From assembly GCA_012295275.1 (NCBI GenBank), contig CM022669.1, positions 806,001-870,000 of the forward strand: 64,000 nucleotides of DNA. Direction: 5' to 3'. A program made the translations under genes and the position numbers. This document shows positions 17,221-50,284 of the stretch, one piece after another. Position 1 is the first letter of the stretch; each line of letters opens with the position of its first letter. The DNA is from Chrysomallon squamiferum (taxonomy: Eukaryota > Animalia > Mollusca). Below the pieces are notes generated by a model, which was not told the origin of the DNA, ran no database searches, and saw only the letters and a program-made list of their open reading frames with translations.

Positions 17221-17259
<39 letters not shown>

Positions 17260-17262
17260 GTA

Positions 17263-17322
<60 letters not shown>

Positions 17323-17556
17323 GATAATAATAATAATAATAATAATAAAATCAACTAATAATAATAAAATGTATAATAATAACAGTAAAATAAGAAAACT
17401 ATTATATATAAAGTTTAATGGACAGATAAAAAGTTAAACTGACTGATTTTACATGTAGGTGTTAAAAAGAGATTTAAGATATCAGACATTACTAAGTAAC
17501 ATTTACTGATTTAAGTGTCACGTGATTTGTTCACGTGTTTGTTTTACAGTGTGAAG

Positions 17557-18492
17557 ATGAATTTCGGGAGCTCGGAGACAAACGGGACAAACAAACAGTT
17601 CCACATCGACGACGTCTCCAACACCGTTGTCAGCGTGTTTGAGATCGCCGTTATTCCTACAATCGTGTGTGGAAACATTCTCATCATTTCTGCGGTGTGC
17701 AGGTTCACGTGGCTGAGGTCCCCCAGTAACATCATGATAGCCTTTCTGGCTGGGGGCGACCTGATGATGGGGGGGTTGTACCTACCGCTGAAGCTGCTGT
17801 TCACGTACCGTGCGTACCTGTTTGACTCGCGTGCCTCGTGTCTCGCGTACATCTTCCTTTCGTACCTGTCTGTAAACAGCTGCATGTTCTTTCTGTCCAC
17901 GCTCTCGCTTGAACGTTTCTACGCAGTCCAGTTCCCCTTCCACTACCACCGCGAGGCGACGCTCGCCCGAAGCGTGCTCGGCTGTCTGGGCGTGTTCGCA
18001 CTCACGCTGGTTGTCACTCTGCCCATTCTCAGCGGAATAGACTCGTGGGCAGAGGGCAAACTCTGCTACAGCACCAACATCCTGCCCGCCTACTACGTCT
18101 GGACTTTCACACTCGTCATTTTCGTCATGCAGCTGGCGGGTTTCTTCTCTTTTCTACGAGTGCTGTACGCCGAACTTCGTCAAAAACGACGTGGTACAAA
18201 CCTGACAGAGAGCAGACGTCAAGACTCTGTGAAATCGACTCTGATGCTCGTGGTCTACGTCATCTCTCTCGTCTGCTGGATTCCAGAGTTCATCTACATC
18301 TTTGTCAGCGTGTTCAACCCGGAGCGCACGACCTTTCTAGGACTGAGGTCAGTGTCGCTGGTCGGCATCGGCAGTTCTGGCCTCAACTTCTTCGTGTACG
18401 GCTTGAAAAACAGCAAGTTCAAGAAAGCGTTCAAAGTGATGTGTGGCTGTCCACTGGATCGAAGTGTCCAGCCCGAAACCGTGACTGAGTAA
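17557..18492 (+). CDS. Class A orphan GPCR 2a, 311 aa, single coding exon
   Basis: ATG at 17557 follows acceptor TTTTACAG (ends 17549); CGNIL, LAGGD, ERFYAV, CWIP, NFFVY and FKKAF motifs; clear paralogue of GPCR1. Confidence 0.93.
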   Translation: MNFGSSETNGTNKQFHIDDVSNTVVSVFEIAVIPTIVCGNILIISAVCRFTWLRSPSNIMIAFLAGGDLMMGGLYLPLKLLFTYRAYLFDSRASCLAYIFLSYLSVNSCMFFLSTLSLERFYAVQFPFHYHREATLARSVLGCLGVFALTLVVTLPILSGIDSWAEGKLCYSTNILPAYYVWTFTLVIFVMQLAGFFSFLRVLYAELRQKRRGTNLTESRRQDSVKSTLMLVVYVISLVCWIPEFIYIFVSVFNPERTTFLGLRSVSLVGIGSSGLNFFVYGLKNSKFKKAFKVMCGCPLDRSVQPETVTE

Positions 18493-19567
18493 AACAAAAC
18501 ACTGAACAGTGTGGCGTGTTTTCACACACACGAAACACTCGTACCAGGAAAGTGAGATAGTTTGTGTAATGTTTTACTAGTCATCACGCGAGTGCACAGC
18601 GACTGTAAAGACTGATTTAAAGCAAATAACGTGAACAAATAATTAATCCTCGATCTCTGACGTCTTCGTACTAAATGTTTCAAATGTACAAATGCAGACC
18701 AACAGAGGAGATTACAGGAAAGAAACTTAATTCATAAGCAAAAACTTATGTTACGACAAAGATTAATGGATTTTAAAAACGACGCATTGCTACTGGCACT
18801 GTGCGTGATTTTCTTTCATTAACACCGACTGATGTTCTAGTTTGATCGTCTTATTTAAATCTTTATAAGTGCAACGACTTTTAAACGTAACACTGAACAA
18901 TAAAATAAACAACTGACGTTCATTTGGAAACTGTTGTATACATGTAACAATAACATCAATACACTGGTAAAAAAGATTGGCGATTACTTAAAAACAAATA
19001 CTATTTGGTCTACGACGATGCTTAATGCTTTATAAGTTGACCGATGTAAGCTCTAATTATTTGGTTTGAAGTTTAAACAATTAGCAGAACAGTAATGTAT
19101 GTTACTAATTTAATTTTCTGAGATTTTGATTTTTGCAAACATTTATTATGGATATGAAACAGACGTTGCTCCAAGCTGAAATATCAGTGAAAAACTCGTA
19201 CTTTAAATGTGCTGGTTTAATCTGGGTACAGGTGAACATTCCAAAACACGTCGAGCTGATATATTAAGTTTAATACACATTTGCTGTCAAGTTAAGACAA
19301 GACAATGATGACAAAATATAACCACAGCTGTCACCTGATAACATGATGTAATCATAGACGTCACGTGATAACATAATGTAATCATAGCTGTCACGTGCTA
19401 ACATGACATGCTTGGAATTATTCATAATTATTTCTTGTCTCTTGACTTCACAAACTTATTTCTTTCAACTAAATATAACAAATATTTCATTTTAAACATT
19501 ACATCATTGCCAGTAATGATAATAATAATAATAATAACAACAACAACAATAATAATAATAATAATAA

Positions 19568-19601
<34 letters not shown>

Positions 19602-19804
19602 GACAATAAAACTTTGTAAAATAATTAACTTAGTGAGATTTTTCTCCTTTTTTTACTTTAAAATCAACTAATTCTTAGAAATGTTCTCTGAAAATAAAAT
19701 GTATAACTACACCAATAAACAACAGAGACACAATATAAGATTTAATAATAAGAACAACAACCACAATAATAATAATAATAATAATATTAATAATAATAAT
19801 AATA

Positions 19805-19903
<99 letters not shown>

Positions 19904-20068
19904 GTAAATGAAAAACTATTATATATAAAGTTAGGACAGATAAAAGTTAAACTGACTGATTTACATGTAGGTGTTAAAAAGAGATTTAAGATATCAGACA
20001 TTACTAAGTAACATTTACTGATTTAAGTGTCACGTGATTTGTTCACGTGTTTGTTTTACAGTGTGAAG

Positions 20069-21004
20069 ATGAATTTCGGGAGCTCGGAGACAAACGGGAC
20101 AAACAAACAGTTCCACATCGACGACGTCTCCAACACCGTTGTCAGCGTGTTTGAGATCGCCGTTATTCCTACAATCGTGTGTGGAAACATTCTCATCATT
20201 TCTGCGGTGTGCAGGTTCACGTGGCTGAGGTCCCCCAGTAACATCATGATAGCCTTTCTGGCTGGGGGCGACCTGATGATGGGGGGGTTGTACCTACCGC
20301 TGAAGCTGCTGTTCACGTACCGTGCGTACCTGTTTGACTCGCGTGCCTCGTGTCTCGCCTACATCTTCCTTTCGTACCTGTCTGTAAACAGCTGCATGTT
20401 CTTTCTGTCCACGCTCTCGCTTGAACGTTTCTACGCAGTCCAGTTCCCCTTCCACTACCACCGCGAGGCGACGCTCGCCCGAAGCGTGCTCGGCTGTCTG
20501 GGCGTGTTCGCACTCACGCTGGTTGTGACTCTGCCCATTCTCAGCGGAATAGACTCGTGGGCAGAGGGCAAACTCTGCTACAGCACCAACATCCTGCCCG
20601 CCTACTACGTGTGGACTTTCACACTCGTCATCTTCGTCATGCAGCTGGCGGGTTTCTTCTCTTTTCTACGAGTGCTGTACGCCGAACTTCGTCAAAAACG
20701 ACGTGGTACAAACCTGACAGAGAGCAGACGTCAAGACTCTGTGAAATCGACTCTGATGCTCGTGGTCTACGTCATCTCTCTCGTCTGCTGGATTCCAGAG
20801 TTCATCTACATCTTTGTCAGCGTGTTCAACCCGGAGCGCACGACCTTTCTAGGACTGAGGTCAGTGTCGCTGGTCGGCATCGGCAGTTCTGGCCTCAACT
20901 TCTTCGTGTACGGCTTGAAAAACAGCAAGTTCAAGAAAGCGTTCAAAGTGATGTGTGGCTGTCCACTGGATCGAAGTGTCCAGCCCGAAACCGTGACTGA
21001 GTAA
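20069..21004 (+). CDS. Class A orphan GPCR 2b, 311 aa, protein identical to 2a
   Basis: Same translation as 17557-18492; only synonymous differences seen. Confidence 0.92.
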   Translation: MNFGSSETNGTNKQFHIDDVSNTVVSVFEIAVIPTIVCGNILIISAVCRFTWLRSPSNIMIAFLAGGDLMMGGLYLPLKLLFTYRAYLFDSRASCLAYIFLSYLSVNSCMFFLSTLSLERFYAVQFPFHYHREATLARSVLGCLGVFALTLVVTLPILSGIDSWAEGKLCYSTNILPAYYVWTFTLVIFVMQLAGFFSFLRVLYAELRQKRRGTNLTESRRQDSVKSTLMLVVYVISLVCWIPEFIYIFVSVFNPERTTFLGLRSVSLVGIGSSGLNFFVYGLKNSKFKKAFKVMCGCPLDRSVQPETVTE

Positions 21005-22167
21005 AAAAAAACACTGAACAGTGTGGCGTGTTTTCACACACACGAAACACTCGTACCAGGAAAGTGAGATAGTTTGTGTAATGTTTTACTAGTCATCACG
21101 TGAGCGTGCAGCGACTGTAAAGACTGATTTAAAGCAAACAACGTGAACAAATAATTAATCCTCGATCTCTGACGTCTTCGTACTAAATGTTTCAAATGTA
21201 CAAATGCAGACCAACAGAGGAGATTACAGGAAAGAAACTTAATTCATAATTAAAATTTAAAAAAACTTATGTTACGACAAAGATTAATGGATTTTAAAAA
21301 CGACGCATTGCTACTGGCACTGTGTGTGATTTTCTTTCATTAACACCGACTGATGTTCTCGTTTGATCGTCTTATTTAAATCTTTATAAGTGCAACGACT
21401 TTTAAACGTAACACCGAACAATAAATTAAACAACTGACGTTCATTTGGAAACTGTTGTATACATGTAACAATAACATCAATACACTGGTAAAAAAGATTG
21501 GCGATTAATTAAAAACAAATACTATTTGGTCTACGACGATGCTTATTGCTTTATAAGTTGATCGATGTAAGCACTAATTATTTGGTTTGAAATTCAAACA
21601 ATTAGCAGAACAGTAATGTATGTTACTTTGACAATTCAAATCTTTTTAAACTATTAAAAAAAGGGACAACTTACAACGCTTTAGCTGATTTTGACTTTGA
21701 ACATAACAACTGCATAACTACAACTAATTTAATTTTCTGAGATTTTGATTTTTGCAAACATTTATTATGGATATGAAACAGACGTAGCTCCAAGCTGAAA
21801 TATCAGTGAAAAAGTCCTACTTTAAATGTGCTGGTTTAATCTGGGTACAGGTGAACATTCCAAAACACGTCGAGGTGATATGTCAAGTTAAGACAAGACA
21901 ATGATGACAAAATATAACCACAGCTGTCACCTGATAACATGATGTAATCATAGCTGTCACGTGCTAATACACATGACATGCTTTGAATTATTCATAATTA
22001 TTTCTTGTCTCTTGACTTCACAAACTTATTTCTTTCAACTAAGTATGACAAATATTTCATTTTAAACATTACATCATTGCCAAAATGATAATAATAATAC
22101 AATTGTTTTTTTTCTATGTTGACTCAAGAATGTCTGCTATGAAGATGATGATGTAATAATAATAATA

Positions 22168-26339: not shown

Positions 26340-28337
26340 GTAAAATAATAGTAACAACTGTCGTTATCATAATAAAGATTTGAAATTTGGATTTTTTAAA
26401 ATGTAATAATGTCGATGAATTCTGTATGGGCTGGCATGTCTAGAGATTGTGTGAAAATAGTTTGGTATGAATGGAACACTTTTTTACTACATTTGCGCTC
26501 TTTCCTGTCAACAACTTTAAAATGCACATTGAGACGTCAACACAGGTGGATAATATCAATTTATCAAATTCACGTAAACGCCTCTAGCAAAAACACGCCA
26601 TATATTCAATGAACCAATATCCTTTTTCAATTAAACAGCTATTTAAAACACTTACGTGTCCACATTTCAATTCATAACAGGAAAAGTTAAGTAAAATTAC
26701 ACGCGTTGAGTAATAATCTGCCTTCAGGTCACAGAACGGGACAGCGGACAGCCAGCCTCGTTTTCAAGCACCAGCACACGAAATGACTCACTCGGTGTGG
26801 AGCTGTATTTATCTCAGCCCCACTCCCTCGACAGCGGACACGCGTCCCACAGCAGAAGCTCACCTACAGAAACCTGCCTGAAAAGATTCTCAGTTCCAAA
26901 TCTGCTCGCCTATAACAAAATCAACTCTGATAAAACTGGTCACAGAAGATTCACGGTCGGCGACATTGTCCCCAGTCGCACGAATCAACCAATGGAGAAG
27001 CAGCATCGCAGTTTCCTCCAAGTTCCAAAGAGCACCAACAGCAGACGACCGTCCTTGGCGAACGCGCTGGACGATGATTTCCACGAGAGTGTCTCGATGA
27101 CTGGGGTGAACGTCCAGAACGGGATAAACGAATGTCTGGAGAGGAAAGGCGGCGGCAGCAGCAACAGCAGCTGTCACAGCAGCATTCCGCATTCGACAGA
27201 CGACAGCCACAGTTTAGGAACAACTGTCGAGATAGAAGAAGACGAAGATGAAGACGACAGCTGGTACTTTATTTATTTACTTATTTAGTTATTTACTTAC
27301 TTACTTACTTATTTATTTATTTACTTATTTACTTATTTATTTATTTACTTATTTACGTATTTATTTATTTACTTATTTACGTATTTATTTATTTATTTAC
27401 TTATTTATTTACTTATTTATTTACTTACTTATTTACTTATTTATTTATTTACTTATTTATTTACTTATTTATTTATTTACTTATATATTTAATTACTTAT
27501 TTATTTATTTGTTTATATATTCATTTCAGAAAATAGCATACGTACACACAAATATTAGTTGAGTTAAGAAAATGACCAAAGAAACGAAACCACTATTAAA
27601 TAACACAAGAAAATGATAAATAAATAAATAAATAAATAAATATAACAACAATAATAACTTATAATAACAATGATGATGATGATGATGATAATAATAATAA
27701 TAATAATAAATTCAAAAAATAATATTAAGAAGAAGAAAATAAAAAAAATATAAATATAATAATAAATACAAAAAGAACAATAACAACAAGGAAACTTGGG
27801 ATTGTCTGTACTTGTTGAACTCTGCTATTAATGATGTACATAAAACGTGCAGTTTCGTCTGTTAATCGACACGGTTCAGTGAATTTTCATATGTGCTATA
27901 AACATTCCTCTACTTAAAACTTTCTTCACGTTGTTATTATGTAAAATCAGTAATTACTGTCATGTTTTAATATCGTTGTGTTTTACTGTTATTACTGTTG
28001 TTATTCTACAAGTTTATCGTTTATATTAATTAACTTACTTTTGTTATTTATTATTATTTTTTTTAAATTATTATTAGTATTTACAGTAAGAATCAGTGTG
28101 TTAGATTGTCATATTCTGTAGACTCCTAGTACTACACATGTAATTAATGTCTTACTTTCTCTGTATTTTGTCTTGTTCCTTCTGTTCACGTTGGTCCTTC
28201 AGAATGTTAGACTACAAAGATACGTGATCTGAAAACCTGTCTAATCACTTGATTAGCGGCTTATTGTAAAACTAAAGTTATTTCTGGTATCATTATTTCA
28301 GCATTACTGGCATGTATATATATATTTCTATATCTAC

Positions 28338-28387
<50 letters not shown>

Positions 28388-29204
28388 ATTTTTATGCATT
28401 TTATTAATCGCTAACATTACCATCATCATCATCATCTCATCGTTATTATTATTATTATTGTTGTTGTTGTTAGTTATTATTATTATCATCATTATTATTG
28501 TTTTACTGTTATTGCAGGAGGCCGTATGACGTGTTTCAGATATCAGAACGAGACTGTGACGTCAACGACTCTATTTTCAAGGAGATCCTGCAGGTGATGA
28601 GAATCGTGCTGTACGTGTTTCTCACTGTTGTTGTTCTGGGCAGCACTGTGACCAGCAGACTCGCGCTCCACCTCCTTGTCTCCGGCATGAACGAGGTGCG
28701 TCTCATTTTCACGTCTGTCTGCAGTAGTCGTAGCAACAGCAGCAACAGCAGCAGCAGCATTAGTAGTAGTAATAGAAAAAGTTTGTAGTTGTAGTAGTAG
28801 AAGTAGCAGTAGCATTATTAGTAGCATTAGTAGTAGTAGTGTTAACAGTACTAATGGTAGTCGTAATAGTGGTAGCACTTGAAGTAGCAGTAGTAGTAAT
28901 AGTAATAGTTGTAGTGGTAGAAATGTAGTAGAAATTGTAGTACTAGCAGCAGTAGTAGTAGCAGTAGTTGTAACAGTAGTAGTAGAGTAGTAGTAGAAGT
29001 AGTAATGATAGAGGTGGTGGTGGCAGTAGAATGGTGATTATACAATTATGTAACGTGTACACGTATTGGTGGCAATAATGAGATGGGAATTTCCTTAGTA
29101 GAAACAGTTTCAACAACTCTAAATTTGTGTTATTCAAAATACGTTTAAGCGTAGTACGAAAATTCTGACGCTTAAAATATTTCTGACGGGAAGTAATAAA
29201 GAAC

Positions 29205-29247
<43 letters not shown>

Positions 29248-31579
29248 AGTCTGTGGCTAGGTGAAGAGTAAATGAAGATTGTTATTTCAGGACAGGAAAT
29301 CTTTAAGTGAATGTCTCGTTCTGCTTCTCTTCTGTATCTGCGCACCGATTGGCTGGAACTGGCTCTTGTCCTTCATGAAGATTCTCTTTGGAGGGAAGGA
29401 GTGGCCGTCAGTGAAGACGTTGCTTGTTGTAAGTTCTACTATTGAGATTTATACAGAAGTTATTTTTATTAGACTGTCATCAACAGAAAGCAGCAGAAGT
29501 AATAGTTGCAGATGGAAAATTTAATAGTAATAGTATTATTATTATTGGTAGTAGTAGTAGTAGTAGTAGTAATAGTAACAGTAGTAGTAGTAGTGGTAGC
29601 TGTAGTATAAATAGTTGAATTATTAGAAAAACAGAAACTGTCAAGATAAACTTTATCAGTAGTGAGTTATGGTTGTAATGAACATCATAGTCACATTCTC
29701 AGATTGCTGTACTGTTCACATGTAAAATCCTGTTTTCAGTTGACGGTGTTGGAACTATTACAAACCTGTGGACTTTCACTTCTCGTTTTCAAAGTTCTTC
29801 CTTCCACCGACTTCTTCAGAGGAATAGTCATCACGTTTGCCATGTTTCAAGTGCCGAGTTTCCTCAAGCTGAGTTTAGCAGAGAGCAGGCTGAGTTCGGG
29901 ATTCTGCAGTTTGTTTAAACTGATGAGCGTCGTGGCAGCTTTTCTCTGTCAAGTGGCTGGCTCGGCTTTCTTTTCTCTGACAGACTTCACCTCGGCTGGG
30001 CAGAAGACGATTGAACTGGAACCAGGAACAAGTCTGAGTTTAGAACACCTTGTCCAGTTCGGATACTTTAGCTGGGAACTTCCTCTCTCTTTGTTTCTTG
30101 TGTCCCTTGGATTCTGGCAGAACTTCATCTCCGGAGACTGGTGTTTCTGCGGTAAAGTGAGCGGCTGTTTCAAGTGCTGGCGAAACTCGTTAAACAGCGT
30201 CAAGGAGACGTCGTACTTCCTGATAGGACCGCTGAAGATTGGTTTGACTGTGTTACTGGCCAGACTGATAACTAACAGCGAGTTCAGGCTGCCTGAACCC
30301 GGAGACAACGCTAACGTTGTCCTCAACCACCTGCTAACGTACAGCCTCATGTACATACAGATAGGCTCAGGCATCGTCTGCACCTACCTGGCTGGTCTGG
30401 CGTGCAAACTGCACATGCAGAGAGTGTCATTCGCCTTACCTTTACTCATTTCCCCCCCAGTCAGCCTCGCTGTGGTCTACCTCCAGTGTCGATTCAACTT
30501 CCTCCCGTCTTACTGGCACGAGAGGGCGTGGTCGTGTCCTAACCTTGACCTCACCTCACTGATTGTTCCCCTCGCGTGCGCCTCAGCTCTCTGGCTTTCC
30601 TACTGCCTCATATCATCGCACATCTGGTTTCCGAAGTGTGAACGAATGGCCAAAATTGAAAGATTATTTATCACGCCAAACTTCAATGGGATATTTCCTG
30701 ACTACAATCTGAGCATGCGTCGACGCCGGAACGAGGAGGACACAGTGAGGGGGAGGTGTGACAGTAAGGCCGGGGTGCAGGGGTCAGGTTTGACGCCCAT
30801 GTTGTACGTGTGTGCCACAATGTGGCACGAGACGAGGAAAGAAATGACGCAACTTCTGAAATCGTTGTACAGGTAAAAACTACGTGTGCGTGTGCGTGTG
30901 CGTGTTAGTGAGTACAGAGCTAAAGACAGCATGACGTAGTGTAAAGTAGAGTATTTAATGTGATAAAGTTCAGTACGACTCCGTCAGAACTATGTTTTGA
31001 TCAATGACAGTACATATGATATTATATCTATCTATCTCTCTGTCTGTCTGTCTGTCTGGCTGTCTATCTATCTATCTATGTATGTATCTATGTATGTATG
31101 TAAGTATGTAAGTATCTATGTATGTATCTATATATGTATATATATATCAATCTATTTATCATCTGTCTGTCTGTCTGTCTGTCTATCGATCTATCTATGT
31201 ATGTATCTATGTATGTATGTATGTATGTATGTATGTATGTATGTATGTATGTATGTATGTATGTATGTATGTATGTATGTATGTATGTATGTATGTATGT
31301 ATATATGTATATATATATCAATCTATTTATACATATATCTGCCTGTCTCTTTGTCTGTCTATCTATCGATCTATCTATGTATGTATCTATGTATGTATGT
31401 AAGTATGTATGTATGTATGTATGTATGTATAAATATCAATCTATTTATACATCTATCTGCCTGTCTCTCTGTCTGTCTATCTATCGATCTATCTATGTAT
31501 GTATCTATGTATGTATGTATGTATGTAATTATGTAAGTATGTATGTATGTATCTATATATGTATATGTGTGTATATATG

Positions 31580-31667
<88 letters not shown>

Positions 31668-33220
31668 AAATAAAGTTTAAGAAAAGTTATTGCAACATTA
31701 TTACAAACAAAAATGAATAAGTTCGTGCAGTGTAACAGTTTAAAAGAATGGAGAACAAAAATAAAGAAATAAAAAGGATATTTATTTATTTATTTATTTA
31801 TTTATATTCTCGTTGTTTCAGACTGGATTATATGCACTGTGCTAGTCGTCTGGCTCAAGAGAAGTTTTTGATTCGAGATCCTGATTACTTCGACCTGGAA
31901 AGTAAATATTTTCTACTCTTCTCTACTAATCCGTCTCTGTACTAGTTTAACTAGGTAGTAAGATATACTCTTCTCTACTAATCCGTCTCTGTACTAGTTT
32001 AACTAGGTAGTAAGATCTACTCTTCTCTACTAATCCGTCTCTGTACTAGTTTAACTAGGTACTACGATCGGTTCTTGGTGCCCGCAGATTCTAGATTTGA
32101 CAGCAGAGAAACAAGCGGCACATTGTCCGGGGCTCACAGAAAACTGAGTATGGAGTGGGTAGCTCACTGGCACAGTGTCCGGGGCTGTGAGAAAACTGAG
32201 TATGGAGTGAGTAGCTCACTGACACAGTGTCCGGGACTATGAGTAACCTGAGTATGGAGTGGGTAGCTCACTGACTGAGTGTCCGGGGCTGTGAGTAAAC
32301 TGAGTAGGGAGTGGGTAGCTCACTGTCACAGTGTCCGAGGCTGTGAGTAAATTGAGTACGGAGTGGGTAGCTCACTGACACAGTGTCCGGGGCTGTGAGA
32401 AATCTGAGTACGGAGTGGGTAGCTCACTGGCACAGTTTCCAGGGCTCCGGCACAGGGCTGTGAGTGGGTAAATCTGACAGTGTCCAAGGCTGGGTGGGTA
32501 GCTCACTGGCACAGTATCCGGGGCTGTGAGTGGGTAGATCACTCGCACAGTGTCCGGGTGTGAGAAATCTGAGTACGGAGTGGGTAGCTCACTGGCACAG
32601 TGTCCGGGGCTGTGAGTGGGTAGATCACTCGCACAGTGTCCGGGTGTGAGAAATCTGAGTACGGAGTGGGTAGCTCACTGGCACAGTGTCCAGGGCTGTG
32701 AGTGGGTAGCTCACTGGCACAGTAACCGGGGCTGTGAGTGGGTAGATCACTCGCACAGTGTCCGGGGTGTGAGAAATCGCTGACTCGACAGTAAACGTTT
32801 CTCTTCCCGGTTTCAACACATCGATCCCCGCTGACAGCACACGCTCACCTGAGGGAATTCCGTTGAGGAAAACTCCGACAATAAAACACGTAGCACGTCA
32901 CGACTACTAAGAATAGACACGTCAGTTTGTGATGAATGGGAGTATGAGAGTCGTGAAGCCAATCCTTTACGCGTGCATTTCATACCTTACAAATCTACAT
33001 TTACTGAAACATCGCAAGCTGAATGTTAGATATTAATAGTTTGTGTGTCGAATATGAATGCTATTTTATAACCCTTCCACTACTGTTAAAGGAATTATAT
33101 TTATTGTAATTTCTAGATCAGTAAAAAGTACAGGAGAATGTAATTATACTATTAATATTTGCTGGCCGTTATCAAACAAGTATTTTTAAATTTTTATTTA
33201 ATTTAATTTTTATTATTATT

Positions 33221-33253
<33 letters not shown>

Positions 33254-33265
33254 CTTCTTCTTCTT

Positions 33266-33296
<31 letters not shown>

Positions 33297-36200
33297 TTAT
33301 TATTATTAATTTTTGTTTGATGTTATTTCTAGGTTAATAACTCTATGTGCTAATACAGATTTATTTTTGGAACCTTAAATAAGTACACATTTTTTAAAAA
33401 AAATAAGTTATTTTGACATATTTCTTAATTAGAAATTTTTTGTTTGAATCTGAAATAGGTACATATTTATAAAAACAAAACAAAACAACAATATTATTTT
33501 AATATATTTAATTATTAGATTTATAATTATAATCTTAAGTAGGTACACGTTTATTTATAAAATAAATAAAAGTTATTTTGATATATTTCTTAATTGCATA
33601 TTTATTGCTAGAATCTGAAATAGGTACGCATTTATATATAAAAAAAAAAAAAAAAATTATAACGAATATGATTTGCTGATTACAGTTCACATTATATTTG
33701 ATGACGCGTTTGAGTACGACAGCGAGGCTGATAGATTTGTACCCAACACCTTCGTCCTTCAGTTAGTCGAGGTCATGGAGGACGCCGCCAGGTGAGGTCA
33801 CGTGATATCAGTACGCATGCGCGACAAGTTTAATAGTTCCCATTGAGATGTATCCGAGACATTAACATAGAATTAAAAAAAAAAAAAAAAAAAAAAATTA
33901 GAATTAAAAATTTAATTGAAAGAAAAATTAAAAAACATATTTATGATTGATTAACATTTTGATTTGCAGTATGTAGTTTTATCAACAGGTCTAATATTAT
34001 AATGTTCATTTGCAGTAGTAGTATTATCAGCAGGCCTAACATTATAATGAAAGTAAAGTTTCTATTTTTTTCAATTTTTTTCTTTTTTTTTTGCTTATTG
34101 TTGCTTGTTTACTTTTTTTTTATTCATTTCTTTTCTCTCTCTTTTTTTCTTATTAATTTTTATCTGTTTATTTATTTTTGTTGTTTCTTTTTCTTCATTA
34201 TAAAATTTCATCTTGTTTATTTAATTTAGTTATTAATCATATAAATCATTGCTTTTTAAAATTAAATTATTATTATTATTATTATTACTTGTTAAACTTT
34301 AAAAAATATTTGTTTATGTTTGCAAATATTTTTAGATCTGTGGTTAAAGGACCTATAGTCATCCCGGCCCCTACCAAAATCCCCACCCCTTATGGCGGGC
34401 GGCTAGTCTGGACAATGCCAGGACAAACCCAGCTGATCATTCACTGCAAAAACAAGAACAAAATCAGACACAGAAAAAGATGGTCACAGGTAAATAATAT
34501 AACTATATATGTATGTGTGTGTATATATATTACTTACTGGGTTTTGTTGTTGTTGTTGTTATTTCAGTGTATGTATGTGTATTACTTACTGGGTTTTGTT
34601 GTTGTTGTTGTTGTTGTTGTTTCAGTGTATGTATATGTATTACTTATTGGGTTTTATTGTTGTTGTTGTTGTTTCAGTGTATGTATGTATATGGGTTTTT
34701 ATTGTTGTTGTTGTGGGTTTTTATTGTTGTTGTTGTTGTTTCAGTGTATGTACATGTATTACTTACTGAGTTTTATTGTTGTTGTTGTTGTTTCAGTGTA
34801 TGTACATGTATTACTTACTGAGTTTTATTGTTGTTGTTGTTGTTTCAGTGTATGTATATGTATTGTATATGTATTACTTACTGGGTTTTATTGTTGTTGT
34901 TGTTGTTTCAGTGTATGTACATGTATTACTTACTTTATTGAGTTTTGTTGTTGTTGTTGTTGTGTATGTACATGTATTACTTACTGGGTTTTATTGTTGT
35001 TGTTGTTGCAGTGCATGTATATGTATTACTTACTGGGTTTTATTGTTGTTGTTGTTGCAGTGTATGTATATGTATTACTTACTGGGTTTTATTGTTGTTG
35101 TTGTTGTTGTTGTTTCAGTGTATGTATATGTATTACTTACTGGGTTTTATTGTTGTTGTTGTTGTTGTTGTTTCAGTGTATGTACATGTATTACTTACTG
35201 GGTTTTATTGTTGTTGTTGTTGTTGTTGTTTCAGTGTATGTATATGTATTACTTACTGGGTTTTATTGTTGTTGTTGTTGTTGTTTCAGTGTATGTACAT
35301 GTATTACTTACTGGGTTTTATTTTGTTGTTGTTGTTGTTTCAGTGCATGTATATGTATTACTTACTGGGTTTTGTTGTTGTTGTTGTTATTTCAGTGTAT
35401 GTACATGTATTACTTACTGGGTTTTATTGTTGTTGTTGTTGTTGTTGTTTCAGTGTATGTATATGTATTACTTACTGGGTTTTATTGTTGTTGTTGTTGT
35501 TATTTCAGTGTATGTATATGTATTACTTACTGGGTTTTGTTGTTGTTGTTGTTGTTGCAGTGTATGTTCATGTATTACTTACTGGGTTTTTATTGTTGTT
35601 GTTGTTGTTTCAGTGTATGTATATGTATTACTTACTGGGTTTTATTGTTGTTGTTGTTGTTTCAGTGTATGTATATGTATTACTTACTGGGTTTTATTGT
35701 TGTTGTTGTTGTTTCAGTGTATGTATATGTATTACTTACTGGGTTTTATTGTTGTTGTTGTTGTTGTTGTTTCAGTGTATGTATATGTATTACTTACTGG
35801 GTTTTATTTTTGTTGTTGTTGTTGTTGTTTCAGTGTATGTACATGTATTACTTACTGGGTTTTATTGTTGTTGTTGTTGTTGTTTCAGTGTATGTATATG
35901 TATTACTTACTGGGTTTTATTGTTGTTGTTGTTGTTTCAGTGTATGTATATGTATTACTTACTGGGTTTTATTGTTGTTGTTGTTGTTGTTTCAGTGTAT
36001 GTATATGTATTACTTACTGGGTTTTTTATTGTTGTTGTTGTTGTTGTTGTTTCAGTGTATGTATATGTATTACTTACTGGGTTTTATTGTTGTTGTTGTT
36101 GTTTTTTCAGTGTATGTACATGTATTACTTACTGGGTTTTCGACTACTGGGTGGACGTGGTTCTAGCAGCACGACAACAGACACAGACGGCGACTCTGCA

Positions 36201-36586
36201 GACACCCCAGACGCCTACGACAACACCGTGAGAAACAGGAAGAAACGAAAGAGCAGGAAGGGGAAGAAACAGAAATCTGTTCCACTGAAAACCTTGCTGA
36301 TGAGAATGCCGCCTGAGCAGTACGAGCAGGTAACAAAACAGAGTCTTAACCGATCCCCAAATTATTCATTGATCTTTTACTTCTATTTACTTTTGTTCAA
36401 ATTACCACAGTATCAAAATATCGAATGTTTCAAAAGAAATTCTTACCTTTTGCATGCTTGTTGTCTAGTCTCCATCAAAAGTTATCCTATTAATGACGTA
36501 AATTAATTGATTACATCATTAGTGCAGATACACAGCTGGTAAATATAAGGGAAGCTGTTTTTCGGAACCTTTCGACTATTTTCGGA

Positions 36587-36647
<61 letters not shown>

Positions 36648-37143
36648 TGTACTTTCAAATCATTAAATTATTATAAATTCTTCCCTGAGAGTTTGTACCA
36701 CTTCAGTATTTGAATAAGTATTTTCTATTCCGAATCCTTGATACCTTTTACGATTACAACAGTTGTGTCAGAAATAATGTTATATCACAAAAGAGTAATT
36801 AACAGCAGTACTGTAATTACTGAGTTAGACTAAAGAGTTATTTATTATTACTCAGGTTTATCTCACTCAGTTTATCAAAACGTTTTTGTTTTCAGATTTT
36901 GGAGAAAGCCGAGCGTTGTTTCATTCTCTGTCTCGATGGTGACGTCGACTTCCGGCCCGAGTCTGTGAAGCTGCTGATGGACAGGATGAAGAAAAACAAG
37001 AAAGTTGGAGCCGTGTGTGGCAGAATTCATCCAGTTGGTTCAGGTTACCATTGTTTATATATTTGTTTTTATTTATTTTTTCTTATTATTATTTTTTTTC
37101 TTATTGTTTTATTGTTTCGTTCTTTTATAAAATTGCATACGTG

Positions 37144-37175
<32 letters not shown>

Positions 37176-37201
37176 GTTTAATTAATTAATGTATGTATGT
37201 A

Positions 37202-37262
<61 letters not shown>

Positions 37263-40033
37263 TGAAATATTGCAGGTCCCATGGTCTGGTATCAGCAGTT
37301 TGAGTACGCTATTGGTCACTGGTTGCAAAAGGCCGCGGAACACGTGTTCGGTTGTGTTCTCTGCTGTCCAGGTTGCTTCAGTCTGTTCAGAGGTTCTGCG
37401 CTGATGGATGACAATGTACTGAAAATGTACACGACAAAACCAACAGAAGCCAGACATTACATCCAGTTTGAGCAAGGTTAGTTATTAGTGATTATCTCCC
37501 CTGCATTGTTCAGTAGGTCGAAAGAAACTGAAGAGTTTTGTAAAGCTGTTAAAAAGAAATTCGGAAATTTTGCAGCAACCAAGTTAGTGATAGCTCATTT
37601 GTGTGAACAGCATCATTCACAGATTTATTCTAAAACGAAAAAGTAGGAACCATAAACAAACAAATAAATAAATAAATAAATATATAAAGATATTATATTT
37701 GTACAAGTGACATATCAGATATTTTATTGTACAAGTTATATAAGATATTGTATATGTACAAGTGATTTATATCAAACATTGTATTTGTACAGGTGTGTTA
37801 TATCAGATATTGTATTTGTACAGGTGTGTTACAACAGATATAGTATTTGTACAGGTGTATTATATCAGATATAGTATTTGTACATATGAGATATAAGACT
37901 AGTGAGTGATATAAGATGTTGTATATGTACTAGTGAATGATATAAGATGTTGTATATGTACTAGTGATATAAGATGTTGTATATGTACTAGTGAGTGATA
38001 TAAGATGTTGTATATGTACTAGTGAATGATATAAGATGTTGTATATGTACTAGTGATATAAAATGTTGTACATGTACTAGAGAATGATATAAAATGTTGT
38101 ACATGTACTAGAGAATGATATAAAATGTTGTACATGTACTAGTGAATGATACAAGACGTTGTACTATTCAGGTGAAGATCGGTGGCTGTGTACTCTGCTG
38201 CTACAACAAGGTCACAGAATTGATTACTGCGCCGGAGCAGACGCTTTGACCTTTGCTCCTGAAACGTTCAACGAATTTTTCAACCAACGTCGGCGCTGGT
38301 CGCCGTCAACTTTGGCCAACCTGATGGACCTGCTGGAGTCGTGGAGGGAGACTGTGCGCATCAACGACAACATCAGCAGACCGTACATCTTCTACCAGTT
38401 CATCCTGATCGCGTCCACCGTGTTGGCGCCCGCCACCGTCATCCTGATGATCACCGGCTCCTTCCACTCAGTCCTCGGCCTCAGCGTCTGGTGGTCCTTC
38501 CTCCTCTCCATGACCCCAGTCGTCTTCTACGTCGTCATCTGCCTCACTCAGAGCAACAACGTGCAGATTACCGTGGCCGCTGTGCTCACGGCTTTGTACA
38601 CCGTCGTCATGATGATAGCAACGGTGGGAACCATCATCAGCATCGCCACTGAAAGCTTCAACAGCCCGAATGTCGTGTTTCTCTGTGGTCTGATTGTCGT
38701 GTTTCTCATCGCCGGCTTGTTGCACCCGCAGGAGTTTTTCTGTCTCGTGTACGGAGCGCTGTATTTTCTTGTCGTTCCGACGACGTTTATCCTGTTAACG
38801 GTTTACTATCTGTGCAACCTCAACAACGTGTCGTGGGGCACTCGAGAGATTCCCAAGAAGCTGACACCACAGGAACAAGAAGCAGCTGACAGAGAGGCCG
38901 AGAGAAAAAAGAAAAACAAAAGCAAGAGTATCTTCAGTCTGTGGGGCCTGGTCGCCCTGGTGCAGGAGCTGCGAGACATCACGAGAAGTTTGATGGGTCT
39001 GAAGAATGACATGGTGACCACTGTCCAGCAGCAGCAGATGGAAGGTACAGAAGTGACCCTCGACATGAGGAGTGATTGCGTGCACAAGACACTGAGTTCG
39101 AGAGATTCTGTCATATCGAGGACTCCAGTCGGATGGGAACCTAATCCCGATCTGCCTTTCTGGCTGAATGTGGAAGAGCTGGGGAATGGGGCAGTGGAAC
39201 TGATACACGATGAGGAGCTGGAGTTTTGGAACTTCACAATTAAGAAATATCTGCTGCCTCTGGACGAGGACAAGCAGCACAAGGAGCAGGTGAAGAACGA
39301 CCTGATGCTGCTGAGAAACAACGTCGTCTTCATCTACTTCCTCCTCAACTTCCTCTGGTGCGTCATTACATTACAGCTGCAAGGACTGGAAAGTGAACTG
39401 AAAAACTTTTACATCATCAGAAAGTACGAGCCGTTGTCGCTGATTTTCCTCTCAGTATTTGCGATTGTCCTCGTACTTCAGTTTATCAGCATGCTCGTAC
39501 ACAGGTGGGGAACTTTCCTCCACTTAATGTCGAGCACCAGAGTGGACTGGTTCAAAAAGTCTCACAGCGAGCAGGAATTTGCAAAGTTTGTGTTAAACGA
39601 GACACGACGTCTGCAGCGACTGGAGCCAGATCTAGAACCTGACCCCGACTACGGCGACGAAGAAGATGACGCCAATACGTCCACTTTCTCTGACCCGGAA
39701 ATCGGAGAGGAGATGACGTCAGTGAGAGATAATAGTAGCTACTACGACACTCTGAGGAGTTTCAGAAGTGACACGTTGAAAAGGTTAAGAAATCACTCAC
39801 AGAGAGGAGGAGTGCCCATATTACAAACAATATTTGAACAGAACTTGAAAACCATGCAGAATTACCACAGCAAGTGGAACAGTGACTCTCTGCGCTACAA
39901 AGGCTCCAGTCGCATGCAGCGAGCCGACAGCAAACACAAAGGCGCAGTGAAAGAACAGGAAATGCGACAAAGACTTTACACACAGACAATGGAGAGAGAC
40001 AAAGATCATCTGAAACGAATCCGAGTGATGTGA
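26337..40033 (+). CDS. CHS: Chitin synthase (GT2 family, animal type), 12 coding exons, predicted 1585 aa, no myosin motor domain
   Basis: join(26337-26339,26728-27263,28518-28695,29291-29428,29740-30872,31822-31901,33686-33791,34336-34489,36111-36329,36896-37043,37276-37476,38172-40033) = 4758 nt, all GT-AG, phases consistent. Motifs: CATMWHE, FDDAF, TPYGGRL, RHRKRWSQ/CMYMYYLLG, LDGDVDF, YQQFEY, CPGCFSLFR, QGEDRW, QRRRW, SWGTRE. Confidence 0.95.
26728..27263 (+). CDS. CHS: CHS exon: Ser-rich/acidic N-terminal region
   Basis: CCTTCAG acceptor, open GC-richer frame, TG|GTACTT donor; phase 2 join gives WRPYDVF. Confidence 0.75.
28518..28695 (+). CDS. CHS: CHS exon: RPYDVF and first transmembrane segment
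   Basis: TTGCAG acceptor; GAG|GTGCG donor. Confidence 0.88.
29291..29428 (+). CDS. CHS: CHS exon: N-terminal transmembrane region
   Basis: TTTCAG acceptor; GTT|GTAAGT donor; 46 codons. Confidence 0.88.
29740..30872 (+). CDS. CHS: CHS exon: transmembrane region to CATMWHE
   Basis: TTTTCAG acceptor; AG|GTAAA donor; ACKLHMQRVSFALP and CATMWHET motifs. Confidence 0.93.
31025..31665. repeat. Compound (TATG)/(TCTG)/(TC)/(TA) microsatellite
   Basis: Seen directly, intronic. Confidence 0.92.
31822..31901 (+). CDS. CHS: CHS exon: LDYMHC...DPDYFDLE
   Basis: TTTCAG acceptor; A|GTAAAT donor; phases 2/1. Confidence 0.9.
31914..32062. repeat. 52-bp tandem repeat, 3 copies
   Basis: Units start at 31914, 31966 and 32018. 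Confidence 0.9.
32117..32778. repeat. GC-rich ~53-bp minisatellite with shorter sub-units (CACAGTGTCCGGGGCTGTGAG...GAGTGGGTAGCTCACTG)
   Basis: Seen directly, intronic. Confidence 0.9.
33686..33791 (+). CDS. CHS: CHS exon: HIIFDDAF...EDAAR (absent from the ORF track)
   Basis: TTACAG acceptor; AG|GTGAG donor; conserved FDDAF. Confidence 0.92.
34336..34489 (+). CDS. CHS: CHS exon: TPYGGRL...RHRKRWSQ
   Basis: TTTTAG acceptor; CAG|GTAAAT donor. Confidence 0.93.
34520..36140 (+). repeat. Tandem array (~28-29 units, mostly 49-60 bp) of the intron/exon junction: (GTT)nTCAG|TGTATGTAYATGTATTACTTACTGGGTTTT
   Basis: The unit matches the acceptor plus the first 30 nt of exon 36111-36329; 28 CAG junctions counted by hand, including the real one. 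Confidence 0.96.
36111..36329 (+). CDS. CHS: CHS exon: CMYMYYLLGFRL plus acidic/basic insert
   Basis: Only the last array unit continues into unique coding sequence; CAG|GTAAC donor; 73 codons. Confidence 0.88.
36896..37043 (+). CDS. CHS: CHS exon: LDGDVDF...CGRIHP
   Basis: TTTTCAG acceptor; G|GTTAC donor. Confidence 0.93.
37276..37476 (+). CDS. CHS: CHS exon: WYQQFEYAIGHWLQK...FEQ
   Basis: TTGCAG acceptor; G|GTTAG donor. Confidence 0.95.
37688..38166. repeat. 27-31-bp minisatellite (GATATAAGATGTTGTATATGTACTAGTGAAT) running up to the acceptor
   Basis: Seen directly; more degenerate at its 5' end. Confidence 0.88.
38172..40033 (+). CDS. CHS: CHS terminal exon: EDR, QRRRW, C-terminal transmembrane segments, SWGTRE
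   Basis: TTCAG acceptor; hallmark chitin synthase motifs; TGA at 40031-40033. Confidence 0.96.
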
Positions 40034-47021: not shown

Positions 47022-49623
47022 CTAAATAGAGGGGTAAATAAAGCGAGACGGGATTCCTAACCTCCGTTTATGGATGACAGTGATCGCGATCGCAAACACG
47101 ATGATCGAGGGGATCCCTATCACCAGAGCGGCCACTATTGGCCAGAAGGTGTCGTCTCCCTCTGCGTCACTTCCGGCCGACATGCTCATTTTCTGTGTGC
47201 TCTTGACAGCCAGCAGAGATTCTGTAGTTCCCACAATGATCGTCTCCGTAGATGTCGTTTCACTGGCAGTCTGAGCCAATGTATGCGACGTTGTTTCTTC
47301 TTTGTCAGTGATATGTCGTTCAGACGTTGACTCTGACGAACTTTTCACGGATTGTTGAGTTTTAGCGTAAAACGGAATCGTTGTTTCGTTGTCTGCGCTC
47401 AAAGACGTCGTGTCGACACTAACAAGCGATGAAGTTGCTGTCGGTTCAAGATTTCCTGTGTCGGTAGTTGCTGTTTCTACACTTCTGTCTGACAGGCTTT
47501 CCGAGCTGCTGAAAGGTGGAGTTGATTTTGTAGTCGATGCCGTTGTAGAAGCGTCTCGTGTTTCTGACGTGATGCTGACATCATGCTGAACGGTGTTGTT
47601 ATCCACTAACACGTCGTTGTAATTGTAGTTGAAGTTGTTTGATGAGATATTTGTCACGCTGTCGGTTTTATCATTTACTGAAGTTGAAAGTTCTAATTCA
47701 GCAACTGTAGCCACAGTCCCGGTTTGTTCGTCTGTTTTTGTGAAAGTTTTAGATTGCGGAGTATTTTTATTGGTTTCCTGATGTTTACCATCAGATTCCG
47801 TTGAATTCGTTTTATTCAGTAATTCTGGTGACTCTTTAACAGCAGCTACAATCAAACTCGAATTAAATTTTTCACTTGGTAAAAACGGTGATTCTTTTAA
47901 TTCCACTGAATTTGAGCTTTCCGAATCTGCATTTAACGAAACTTGACTAACTGTCGATTTATCAGTAGTTGTTGAAGCTAAGTCTAACGACGTTGCTGAT
48001 GTTGAAGTCTGGGTGTCAGCTAAGGTTTTAGAAATTCTTTCCTTTGCTTGCCGAAGTGTTTTCAAAGTCAAATCTTCTGACTTGTAATGTTCACCGTCTA
48101 CATCAGAGTGTTTCGAAATGGCATCTCTATTGGTGCTCGCTGCTGTAGTTGTCGTTGAAACTGTTTGAAGTGTTGTGTTTGCGGCATCCTCCTCGAGTCT
48201 GGAATCAGTATCATTTACGTCTACATTCGATTCTTTCTCTTCTCCAGTTAGATCAGCTTGTCTGAGGTTTAATTCAGGTAAAGTATCACTGGTGTTTGGT
48301 GAGAGAAAGTTCGTCGTCTCCAGTGCGTGTTTTGACAGACCTTCAGCCATTACTTCATTTCCTGATACGTCCACCTTCTGCGTGCTGAGTTCCTGCGTTA
48401 ACATGGATCTTTCTCTCAGAACACGCGGTCGAAGCAGCGACTTGATTTTCTCTTTGGCTTCAATTTTCAGTGACTTTTCATCTAAAAGTTTTGACTTTGT
48501 TTTCTTTGAAAGTTTTGGGAGCTTACTGTTGTGTTTCACTCTGCCAGCTCTTCCTTCCACGACTCCACGTCGAATATCCCCAATTTTCAAAGTCTCTCCA
48601 ATTCTGTCCTCATCTGAGAAAACTGACGCCACAAATTCTGAATCACTGCTTTCATTTCCTTCATCACTTTCACCTGCTGCTTTAGAAACCCGTTTAACAT
48701 GTTTATTTATCAACATCTTCTCTTTGTTCCGCTGTTTTAAAGACGCCATAAATCTCTTGTAGAAGGTAGACACCTCGGGAGAGGTCGACTTTAACGTTTT
48801 CAACAACCTCGGCTGCACAACGTCGTCCATCATTTCCTCTAACGGCGTGTCGTCGACAACTGCCTCAACTTCAACAACAGCTTCGCTGTTAGCAGCACTT
48901 CGCAGTTGTCCCATCGGGGTGAGGCCTCGCCGATCTGTGGACGAGTCTCTCTGCGGCAGACCTGACTTCACTGTTGACGTGTGTCCACCAGAGTCAGTTA
49001 AATGTTTAAAATGTTCTATACCAGAACTTACAGACTGTTTGTTGTTTTCTTCAAGTATATCTTTGTTGGTGTCCTTAAAAGTTTTATCAGTTGTTGCCCT
49101 TAATCCGGGAAAAAATGAAAATGTAAACCCAGGTGTCTTACTAATATTCTGTGCCTTTTCCAAAACGGAGGATGATTTTTTACTCGAAATGTTTATAGAT
49201 TCTGATAATGATGAAGATATGTTATTGGTAGACTGCTGAACTGTAGAAATGGCTTTTTGTTGTTTTTCTGGTTTAACTAAAACCTCTGAAATTTTAAAAA
49301 GCTGTGGACTTTTTATTAAGCTCAGTTTAGAATAGTCATCCTTCAGGACCGGTCTGTTTGTGGGAGAAGATTCTGAGAATCTGTTTCTGAGAAAATCTTC
49401 CAAATCCGCGTCTCCTGACGACTCGAACTCGTCTGCGTGCAGCGACGTCGCACCAAACACGACCGAGTCGAGGTAGTCGCGTGACGTCGTCGTGTCGCCG
49501 CCACCTGGTGGTTCACTCACAGACGTCGTTGTCCTTCCATCACGTCGTGGTCTGTCTAGAACATCAGCAGATTTCTCTCTGTCTGGAGACGTGATACACG
49601 TTCTGTGAAACGCTGTTTGAAGT
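47022..49623 (-). CDS. Terminal exon of an uncharacterised single-pass membrane protein with a Ser/Thr-rich mucin-like stalk
   Basis: 2.6-kb non-repetitive ORF; TTTCGCAG acceptor; transmembrane segment FWPIVAALVIGIPSIIVFAIAITVI followed by HKRR and a short tail ending YPSI. Confidence 0.88.
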
Positions 49624-50284
49624 CTGCGAAATATGAAAACATTAAAATGAATTTTTGTTGAATATAATAACAATAAATTGAATGTAGAAACCCTTATAAT
49701 TTATTTTTAATTTAAAACTGAACTAAGAGTGGTTAGATTCTTAGGCTAACATGATTCACTCAGAGGATCATTTCACTACTGGATTATCGTGAATTTTACT
49801 TAAAATAGCAAATTTTGATGTCACTTATTTTCTAAGATATTTATGCTTTGAAGGTAATATTTGATATTGAGTGATTTGACATGTTGTGAAGTCAGATAAA
49901 GAACGGTGTCTGTTAAACCTTTCTCCTACTACAGATGTGTGTTACTGTCACATTACCACGAGGAAAAAGTCTTTGATAAGTCAAATGCTGGGCGTGTAAC
50001 TATTAAAGATATTCCTACTTTAACTGCAGAAGTGTAAGACGCGAACAAAGTGAGAACTGGAGAAATGAAGAGATTGTTTTTCACATCAGTAGATGTCTTT
50101 CACACTGAGTCAGCTGGTATTAATAAACGAATCTGAATCAGTGAATTAGTGTCTAACATCAAATACATTTTTTAACATATGTTAATACTGTTTGTTCAGT
50201 CTGTTTATAGTTTGCTGACCCAGTTTGTTTTATTGCTGACATATACTGATCAGAAAACTGTCAGACGTGATCGTATGCTGTTAC

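What the first reader, a model, noticed from the sequence alone, without database searches (positions are those of the whole stretch)
34490..36140. Chitin synthase intron built from ~28 tandem copies of its own 3' splice junction (decoy acceptor array)
Seen: after the RHRKRWSQ|GT donor, nearly the whole 1621-nt intron repeats (GTT)nTCAG plus the first 10 codons of the next exon (CMYMYYLLGF). There are 27 extra CAG junctions before the real one at 36110. Known: KRWSQxMYMYYLLG is a conserved contiguous chitin synthase motif, so the repeat derives from coding sequence. Seen: the array has no stop in any plus-strand frame over most of its length. Six decoys are in frame with the exon; the nearest (exon start 35889) would insert 74 hydrophobic residues. 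The others frameshift to stops ending at 36166 or 36231. Inference: either the spliceosome skips 27 near-identical acceptors, or the array tunes output through isoforms or nonsense-mediated decay, with copy number and (GTT)n length as variables.
Basis: partly seen in the sequence, partly recalled or inferred. Interest (0 to 1): 0.9.

Follow-up and report, generated by a model that had tools for sequence, protein, structure and literature searches.

The report
Repeated splice acceptor in snail intron
The end of an intron and the start of the next exon of a snail chitin synthase gene are copied about 29 times in a row, yet the assembled transcripts splice straight to the last, real copy, so this is most likely a tolerated repeat of a kind already described in lancelets ("mirage") rather than a control switch.

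Summary
Intron 34490-36110 of an 11-exon chitin synthase (80% identical to a Gigantopelta aegis protein) is, apart from its first 25 nt, a ~55-nt minisatellite of the intron's 3' end plus the first 30 nt of exon 8: 27 spare CAG acceptors precede the real one. The regulatory reading is not supported. In two spliced contigs laid on both flanks, exon 7 joins 36111 with no repeat unit between (one sample; minor or NMD-destroyed forms are invisible to contigs). The stop-free frames follow from the copied codons (null P 0.66). The structure is a known kind, the lancelet 'mirage' minisatellite (PMC3087553), and this scan has logged the same kind in several other genomes. The intron position is ancient (30 of 30 related two-exon loci), so it is not intron gain. 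One side result: related insect-type loci carry an independent 42-nt junction array in the same intron, with 7 to 22 copies and most acceptor AGs lost. Likely mechanism: exon definition picks the acceptor nearest the next donor. Copy number in raw reads is unverified.

The parts
26727..40033 (+). Chitin synthase gene, 11 coding exons found (26727-27263 with its 5' end open, 28518-28695, 29291-29428, 29740-30872, 31822-31901, 33686-33791, 34336-34489, 36111-36329, 36896-37043, 37276-37476, 38172-40033)
   Evidence: Joined exons give one open frame of 1584 aa, 80.4% identical to P0001 (G. aegis) over 1594 columns; all 10 introns GT-AG; P0001 hits PF03142
34336..34489 (+). Exon 7, ends ...RHRKRWSQ, donor CAG|GTAAAT
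   Evidence: Covered by spliced contigs of X1 and X4, whose loose 5' ends are exon 6
34490..34514 (+). The only non-repeat part of the intron (25 nt, holds the donor)
   Evidence: TRF array starts at 34515; alignment A1; DNA contigs of X2 and X7 run from the exon into it
34515..36140 (+). Junction minisatellite ('mirage'): about 29.5 units of mostly 49-63 nt, 27 decoy CAG acceptors; the three rearranged units and the decayed first unit lie at the 5' end
35889..36110 (+). Segment that the nearest in-frame decoy would add to exon 8 (74 aa, hydrophobic); not present in the spliced contigs
   Evidence: contig coordinates
36074..36110 (+). Real acceptor region: candidate branch adenosines at -35 (in exon-derived TACTTAC) and -25, then the only TTTTTTCAG of the array
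   Evidence: Motif scan only for the branch sites; use of the AG shown
36111..36329 (+). Exon 8 (219 nt, CMYMYYLLGFRLLGG...EQYEQ); its unique part 36141-36329 is 53% G+C and holds 10 GAA triplets against 0 in the array
   Evidence: Matches P0001; covered by spliced contigs of X1, X3, X4, whose loose 3' ends are exon 9; composition

Best explanation
This is a 'mirage'-type minisatellite: tandem copies of the exon 8 splice junction fill the intron, the assembled transcripts splice only to the last copy, and the array is likely neutral, likely tolerated because exon definition would pick the acceptor nearest the next donor. Shown: the anatomy; the direct join 34489 to 36111 in RNA-derived contigs; the ancient position of the intron. 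Inferred: (1) a ~55-nt piece holding the (GTT)n tract, CAG and ten codons was duplicated by slippage or unequal exchange, probably helped by the T-run shared by exon (GGTTTT) and intron, then amplified and partly homogenised like the other minisatellites that cover 9% of this window; (2) every unit is a sequence-competent acceptor, but only the last is followed by the G+C-rich, GAA-containing exon body and by a donor 219 nt away, so it wins; its longer U-tract may add to the bias; (3) whatever leaks to decoys is mostly frameshifted (21 of 27) and would be removed by NMD, which lowers the cost of carrying the array.
For: X1 contig (3510 nt): 34334-34489 = record 785-940 and 36114-36329 = record 944-1159, a 3-letter gap equal to 36111-36113; X4 contig (2365 nt, minus strand): 34489 = record 2106, 36114 = record 2102, same gap; X3, laid downstream only, is unbroken with the same 263 letters upstream as X4. 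The contigs carry the real exon's TAC at codon 3, which 17 of 24 well-aligned decoys lack. 120 of 120 homologues hold the KRWSQ motif and the closest (P0001) continues CMYMYYLLGFRLLGG with no insert. Decoy ends are not weak: 21 of 27 end GTTGTTTCAG, the last 10 nt of the authentic exon 5 acceptor, and 3 end GTTATTTCAG, as the exon 3 acceptor, so context must decide. Exon-centric proximity rule for exons between long introns (PMC9225289, passages; human data). Same structure, no effect on splicing, in lancelet Adh3, troponin C, BflGb6 (PMC3087553 section 16; PMC3902484 passage). An independent array at the same intron in insect-type loci has kept its place while losing most AGs.
Against: All three spliced runs are one sample and are assembled contigs, which drop rare forms; the tool masked 36056-36113 and 34496-34590, so array-containing RNA could not be counted. 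Exon definition was not tested, and the first decoy would give a 78-nt intron, a length at which intron definition would favour it (PMC9225289 also reports an overall upstream 3' preference that is only reduced for long introns). The real site is also the only one with seven pyrimidines before AG and has the most open predicted CAG, which offers a different mechanism. Signs of tandem turnover were not significant (neighbour similarity p 0.12, 5' polarity p 0.10).
Confidence: 0.72

Rival explanations
1. Neutral array, but the real acceptor wins by its own strength: one G-to-T difference gives it a U6 tract and its CAG is less base-paired than the decoys'.
For: Only the real site has 7 pyrimidines before AG (decoy CAGs 1 or 4). 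Predicted unpaired probability of CAG 0.30 against 0.01-0.13 for 27 decoys (window 150) and 0.13 against 0.005-0.06 (window 240); each unit can pair UUUCAGU with ACUGGG of a neighbour (z -2.3, 3 of 200 shuffles).
Against: Authentic acceptors of the same gene work with the decoys' exact last 10 nt and with pyrimidine runs of 1-5, and with predicted CAG openness of 0.02-0.38 (9 sites). In F7 IVS7 identical pseudo-sites are functional and position decides (PMC1557585, abstract and Discussion).
Confidence: 0.12
2. The array is a rheostat: a real share of transcripts uses decoys and is destroyed by NMD or makes long hydrophobic isoforms, with copy number and (GTT)n length setting chitin synthase output.
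For: 27 intact CAGs, each with a branch-like motif 19-44 nt upstream; 21 of 27 lead to stops at least 98 nt before the next junction; steady-state contigs cannot show degraded forms.
Against: 2 of 2 contigs laid on both flanks join directly and are unbroken across a 33-nt stretch shared with the array, where an abundant decoy path should split a 31-mer graph (the graph argument is my inference). Stop-free frames are expected from the copied codons (66% of random synonymous encodings are stop-free in all frames). 7 of 27 in frame is below the one third expected, so no enrichment. One premature stop is lost in a synonymous allele. No such array in 17 of 18 distinct related introns, and where one exists most AGs are gone.
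Confidence: 0.09
3. The array is an assembly artefact, or its copy number is inflated.
For: No read or contig was seen across or inside the array (masked by the tool); no match to the decoy junction in metagenome contigs; no whole genome held.
Against: 20 of 27 units are distinct and several substitutions recur in separate units (GAG x3, TGC x2, ATTTCAG x3, GCAG x3), which repeated copying of one unit by an assembler would not give. Short-read DNA contigs of two samples enter the intron and end 36 and 42 letters past 34495, where the array starts. The window is 26% tandem repeat.
Confidence: 0.06
4. The intron is new and was created by the duplication itself (Rogers-type intron gain).
For: All but 25 nt of the intron is repeat; such a route is proposed for mirages (PMC3087553).
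Against: 43 of 80 related loci have GT right after WSQ, and all 30 that hold both exons have a GT-AG phase-0 intron of 50-2000 nt at this position; the donor is unique sequence, not part of the unit.
Confidence: 0.01

Closest known systems
Lancelet 'mirage' minisatellites: globin BflGb6 (PMC3087553, section 16 read), Adh3 (Canestro 2002, known to me only through citing papers), troponin C and PGBD5 (PMC3902484, one passage read)
   Same: Tandem units made of an intron's 3' end plus the head of the next exon; many units keep AG; regular splicing reported undisturbed; unit length inside the reported 10-160 bp range.
   Different: Here a gastropod gene; about 29 units against 3-6 in BflGb6; 27 keep CAG; the array fills 98% of the intron, so the branch point must lie in a repeat unit; the unit holds its own (GTT)n microsatellite. 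Length variation between alleles is not shown here.
Human F7 intron 7 37-bp VNTR (PMC1557585, abstract and Discussion read)
   Same: Minisatellite whose end unit spans an exon boundary; identical pseudo-sites stay silent; the site next to the full exon is used.
   Different: Donor side, 5-9 sites, and tested by mutagenesis; here acceptor side, 28 sites, no experiment.
42-nt junction array in the same intron of insect-type chitin synthase 1 loci L029, L031/L035, L033 (found here; best match Gryllus bimaculatus CHS1, P0085)
   Same: Same phase-0 intron after KRWSQ; unit = intron tail + exon head; array ends at the real acceptor.
   Different: Unrelated unit sequence (12 nt of exon, not 30); 7, 22 and at least 17 copies in related lineages; CAG before the exon head survives in 4 of ~22 units of L031, 0 of 7 in L029 and none of the visible units of L033.

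Membership tests
Mirage minisatellite | Tandem repeats whose unit spans an intron-exon boundary of the host gene | tested here: met
Mirage minisatellite | Many units keep the splice signal | tested here: met
   27 decoy CAG in about 29 units
Mirage minisatellite | Regular splicing of the mRNA is not disturbed | tested here: met
   Direct join in 2 of 2 contigs laid on both flanks; dominant form only, one sample
Mirage minisatellite | Length instability between alleles or cells | not testable with these tools
   Array masked by read laying; no second assembly held. Seen only in the separate insect-type array (7, at least 17, 22 copies)
Mirage minisatellite | Concerted evolution inside the cluster with the borders left out | tested here: inconclusive
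   Decayed and rearranged units at the 5' end and a distinct last tract, but neighbour similarity p 0.12 and polarity p 0.10
Metazoan chitin synthase (GT2, PF03142) | Chitin_synth_2 domain with EDR and QRRRW motifs in an open frame | tested here: met
   Model 80.4% identical to P0001, which scores 104 bits on PF03142; EDR and QRRRW in the last exon
Intron gain by tandem duplication (Rogers model) | Intron absent at this position in relatives; both splice sites come from the duplicated unit | tested here: not met
   Same intron in 30 of 30 two-exon loci; donor is outside the unit
Regulated unproductive splicing (AS-NMD) | Measurable, condition-dependent use of a PTC-forming site, conserved in relatives | tested here: inconclusive
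   No use seen in contigs but rare forms are invisible; no conservation in 17 of 18 distant introns; close relatives not available

The most novel reading that the evidence does not exclude
The KRWSQ|xMYMYY junction of animal chitin synthases is a recurrent birthplace of acceptor minisatellites (snail and insects independently), and these arrays have a life cycle: born with intact AGs that leak transcripts to NMD in proportion to copy number, so that allele length tunes chitin output, then defused by loss of the AG as in the older insect array.
Probability: 0.08. Interest if true: 0.65.

Novelty: new member of a known kind. Interest (0 to 1): 0.27.

Why it matters
As a kind it is known, so it does not open a new mechanism. 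It is a clean natural substrate: 28 near-identical acceptors in a row, differing mainly in distance to the next donor, make the acceptor-side counterpart of the F7 donor test and could separate exon definition, tract strength and RNA structure in an invertebrate. It extends mirages to a mollusc, which my searches did not find in print. The pair of arrays at one homologous intron, young with AGs in the snail and older with few AGs in insects, gives a way to ask whether selection removes decoy acceptors. Practically, such arrays can mislead gene prediction, since the exon 7 frame stays open through the whole intron to 36166.

Tried and rejected
No whole genome is held, so the genome-wide rate of such arrays could not be counted. 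Exact search for the decoy junction in metagenome contigs: 0 matches. DNA run X5 gave no contig on 36056-36560 and three loose ends at the repeat were dropped by the tool: no evidence either way. Stop-free frames as a sign of selection: a mononucleotide shuffle gives P 0.012, but the proper null (same ten residues, random synonymous codons) gives 0.66, so rejected. Neighbour similarity, two-unit periodicity and polarity of units: not significant. Palindrome ATGTACATGTA in the exon head as the cause: present in 55 of 67 related loci, nearly all without an array, so not sufficient. Recursive splicing: each unit has GTATGT one base after the AG (27 times), but that would leave one extra base per step and the real exon has the same motif; not pursued. 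Mapping the insertion point on a solved structure failed: PDB matches start at residue 888 or later of P0001, past the junction near 795. Control for arrays at other junctions: among 205 gaps between protein matches in the 80 loci (redundant), arrays touched an edge in 6 loci; three are the insect array, L016 and L036 are triplet-rich tracts and L066 an acidic coding run, judged by eye from translations. PMC2812944 (outline only) and PMC6905558 (passages: an ordinary 27-bp intronic minisatellite in abalone) added nothing. The original Adh3 paper and the supplements of PMC3087553 were not read.

Full report
Host gene. The window is repeat-rich animal DNA (26% tandem repeat, 9% minisatellite). 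The last exon's best match is a Gigantopelta aegis chitin synthase at 86%, then Haliotis at 66%, so the organism is probably a close relative of that peltospirid snail (inference; not identified further). Eleven exons between 26727 and 40033 join into one open frame of 1584 aa, 80.4% identical to that protein, with ten GT-AG introns. All 120 listed homologues hold the KRWSQ motif, followed by V (69), C (31), I (19) or L (1); the closest reads KRWSQCMYMYYLLGFRLLGG, as exon 7 joined to 36111 does.

Observation. The intron 34490-36110 is 1621 nt. From 34515 to 36140 it is a tandem array of 29.5 units. A unit is the first 30 nt of exon 8, then [A]TT(GTT)4-8, then TCAG or GCAG. The intron has 31 AG: 27 decoy CAG, 3 GAG variants and the real site. 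Of 44 exon-edge and junction probes of the gene only the two at this acceptor recur in number. Seven decoys are in frame; one meets a TGA at 34767, six are open and would add 74 to 438 residues. Of the other 20, 17 stop at 36166 or 36231 and 3 stop inside the array. The exon 7 frame is itself open through the whole intron to 36166. This lack of stops is expected: with the same ten residues and random synonymous codons 66% of units are stop-free in all frames (a plain base shuffle gives 1.2%, but ignores the coding origin).

Which acceptor is used. Nine public runs hold the last exon. I laid 6 of the 11 listed runs on two stretches that flank the array. X1, X3 and X4, listed as 'DNA?', are spliced: their contigs stop at 36329 and go on with exon 9, and X1 and X4 start at 34334 and are preceded by exon 6. 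In X1 one 3510-nt contig holds 34334-34489 at record 785-940 and 36114-36329 at record 944-1159; in X4 a 2365-nt contig has 34489 at record 2106 and 36114 at record 2102. Both gaps are three letters, 36111-36113, so exon 7 joins the last acceptor with no unit between. I match the records across the two calls by equal length and depth. X3 was laid only downstream; its contig is unbroken with the same 263 upstream letters as X4. Limits: one sample; contigs drop rare forms; the tool masked 36056-36113 and 34496-34590, so RNA inside the array was not counted. An abundant decoy path should split a 31-mer graph at the 33 nt shared by junction and array (my inference), so decoy use is at most minor at steady state. 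An A>C allele at 36231 in X3 and X4 is silent in frame and removes one of the two premature stops; the next stop in that frame is at 36286.

Is the array real? Not shown at read level. DNA contigs of X2 and X7 run from exon 7 into the intron and end 36 and 42 letters past 34495, where the array begins; X5 gave nothing; a metagenome scan found no match. The units are varied, 20 distinct of 27, with substitutions shared between separate units, which fits a real minisatellite better than an assembler's copy. Tests for neighbour similarity (p 0.12) and 5' decay (rho -0.32, p 0.10) were not significant.

Why the last copy wins. The decoys are not poor sites: 21 end in GTTGTTTCAG and 3 in GTTATTTCAG, the same last ten bases as the authentic acceptors of exons 5 and 3, and each has a branch-like yUnAy motif 19-44 nt upstream (consensus recalled). 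Since only 25 nt of the intron is non-repeat, the real branch point must also lie in a unit; candidates are at -35, inside copied exon codons, and -25. What is unique to the last site is what follows: 189 nt at 53% G+C with 10 GAA triplets (array 30% G+C, none), and a donor 219 nt away. In human data, exons between long introns favour the sites closest across the exon (PMC9225289, passages), and in F7 intron 7 identical donor copies are functional but only the one at the exon is used (PMC1557585, abstract and Discussion). I therefore take exon definition as the likely cause; it is inferred, not tested, and the same paper notes a general upstream preference for 3' sites that is only reduced in long introns. 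A rival is intrinsic strength: the real site alone has seven pyrimidines before AG and the most open predicted CAG, though other authentic acceptors of the gene manage with less on both counts.

Relatives. With exon 7 as query, 80 metagenome loci were kept of 94 confirmed. 43 have GT straight after WSQ, 36 are contiguous (transcripts or intronless), 1 is other. All 30 that hold both exons have a GT-AG intron there, 50-2000 nt, in 18 groups by their first 12 nt. The intron is therefore old and was not made by the duplication. One of the 18 groups has its own array: L031 and L035 (identical; 22.3 copies), L029 (7.1) and the truncated L033 (at least 17.3) carry a 42-nt unit of intron tail plus 12 nt of exon head that ends at the real acceptor. 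Their protein is insect-type (93% to Gryllus CHS1 on the upstream exon), their unique intron parts are 88-91% alike, and the unit is unrelated to the snail's apart from the shared codons. CAG before the exon head survives in 4 of about 22 units in L031, none of 7 in L029 and none of the visible units in L033; most have CAC. A further locus, L039, has a two-copy 131-nt duplication across the acceptor of the exon 7 homologue. So junction duplications are not rare in animal chitin synthases, and an array can outlast its AGs, which speaks against decoys being kept for a purpose. A palindrome in the exon head is in 55 of 67 loci and does not explain the arrays.

What is known. Ebner et al. 2010 (PMC3087553, section 16 read whole) describe tandem copies of an intron's 3' end plus the 5' part of the next exon in lancelet BflGb6, name them 'mirages' after the Adh3 case, and report that RT-PCR shows regular splicing although many units keep AG/GT. 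PMC3902484 (one passage) adds troponin C and PGBD5. The present array meets the three features I could test. Six searches found no mollusc or chitin synthase case in the held library. This scan's own notes list acceptor arrays of 3 to 35 copies in six other genomes and a donor array in another chitin synthase (unchecked, and consulted after I had reached the mirage reading).

Verdict. A real, striking, large example of a known kind; new member, interest 0.27. The best account is a neutral junction minisatellite whose last acceptor is chosen by context (0.72). The boldest reading left open, a copy-number rheostat at a recurrent hotspot, has probability about 0.08.

Noticed in passing
L031:3326-4274, L035:1336-2284, L029:1318-1616, L033:1367-2093: Independent 42-nt acceptor-junction minisatellite in the same chitin synthase intron of related insect-type loci; 22, 22, 7 and at least 17 copies; most units have CAC in place of CAG.
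   Followed up: partly
L039:1005-1273: Two-copy 131-nt duplication across the acceptor of the exon 7 homologue (intron tail plus about 105 nt of exon) in another animal's chitin synthase.
   Followed up: partly
window 17197-19106 and 19718-21627 (+); 5588-6547 (-): Three intronless rhodopsin-family GPCR frames (PF00001, E 1e-24 to 1e-27); two sit in a 1.9-kb tandem duplication at 96.7% identity, which could be a young duplicate or two haplotypes.
   Followed up: partly
window 47025-49700 (-): 892-codon open frame, Ser/Thr-rich, with a hydrophobic stretch near its end (mucin-like membrane protein?); no Pfam match.
   Followed up: partly
window 1-26700: No myosin-motor exons upstream of the chitin synthase, although the Haliotis, Lottia and bivalve top matches carry PF00063; the G. 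aegis match lacks it too.
   Followed up: partly
window 37688-38163: A 31-nt and a 31/58-nt minisatellite run up to 8 nt before the acceptor of the last exon and hold many YAG, but no exon copy.
   Followed up: no
window 34493: A second DNA contig of run X7 (depth 15.7 against 31.4) matches only to 34492, three bases into the intron: perhaps a second allele at the donor side.
   Followed up: no
window 36231 and 34420: Silent coding variants: A>C at 36231 in contigs of X3 and X4, A>G at 34420 in X2.
   Followed up: partly
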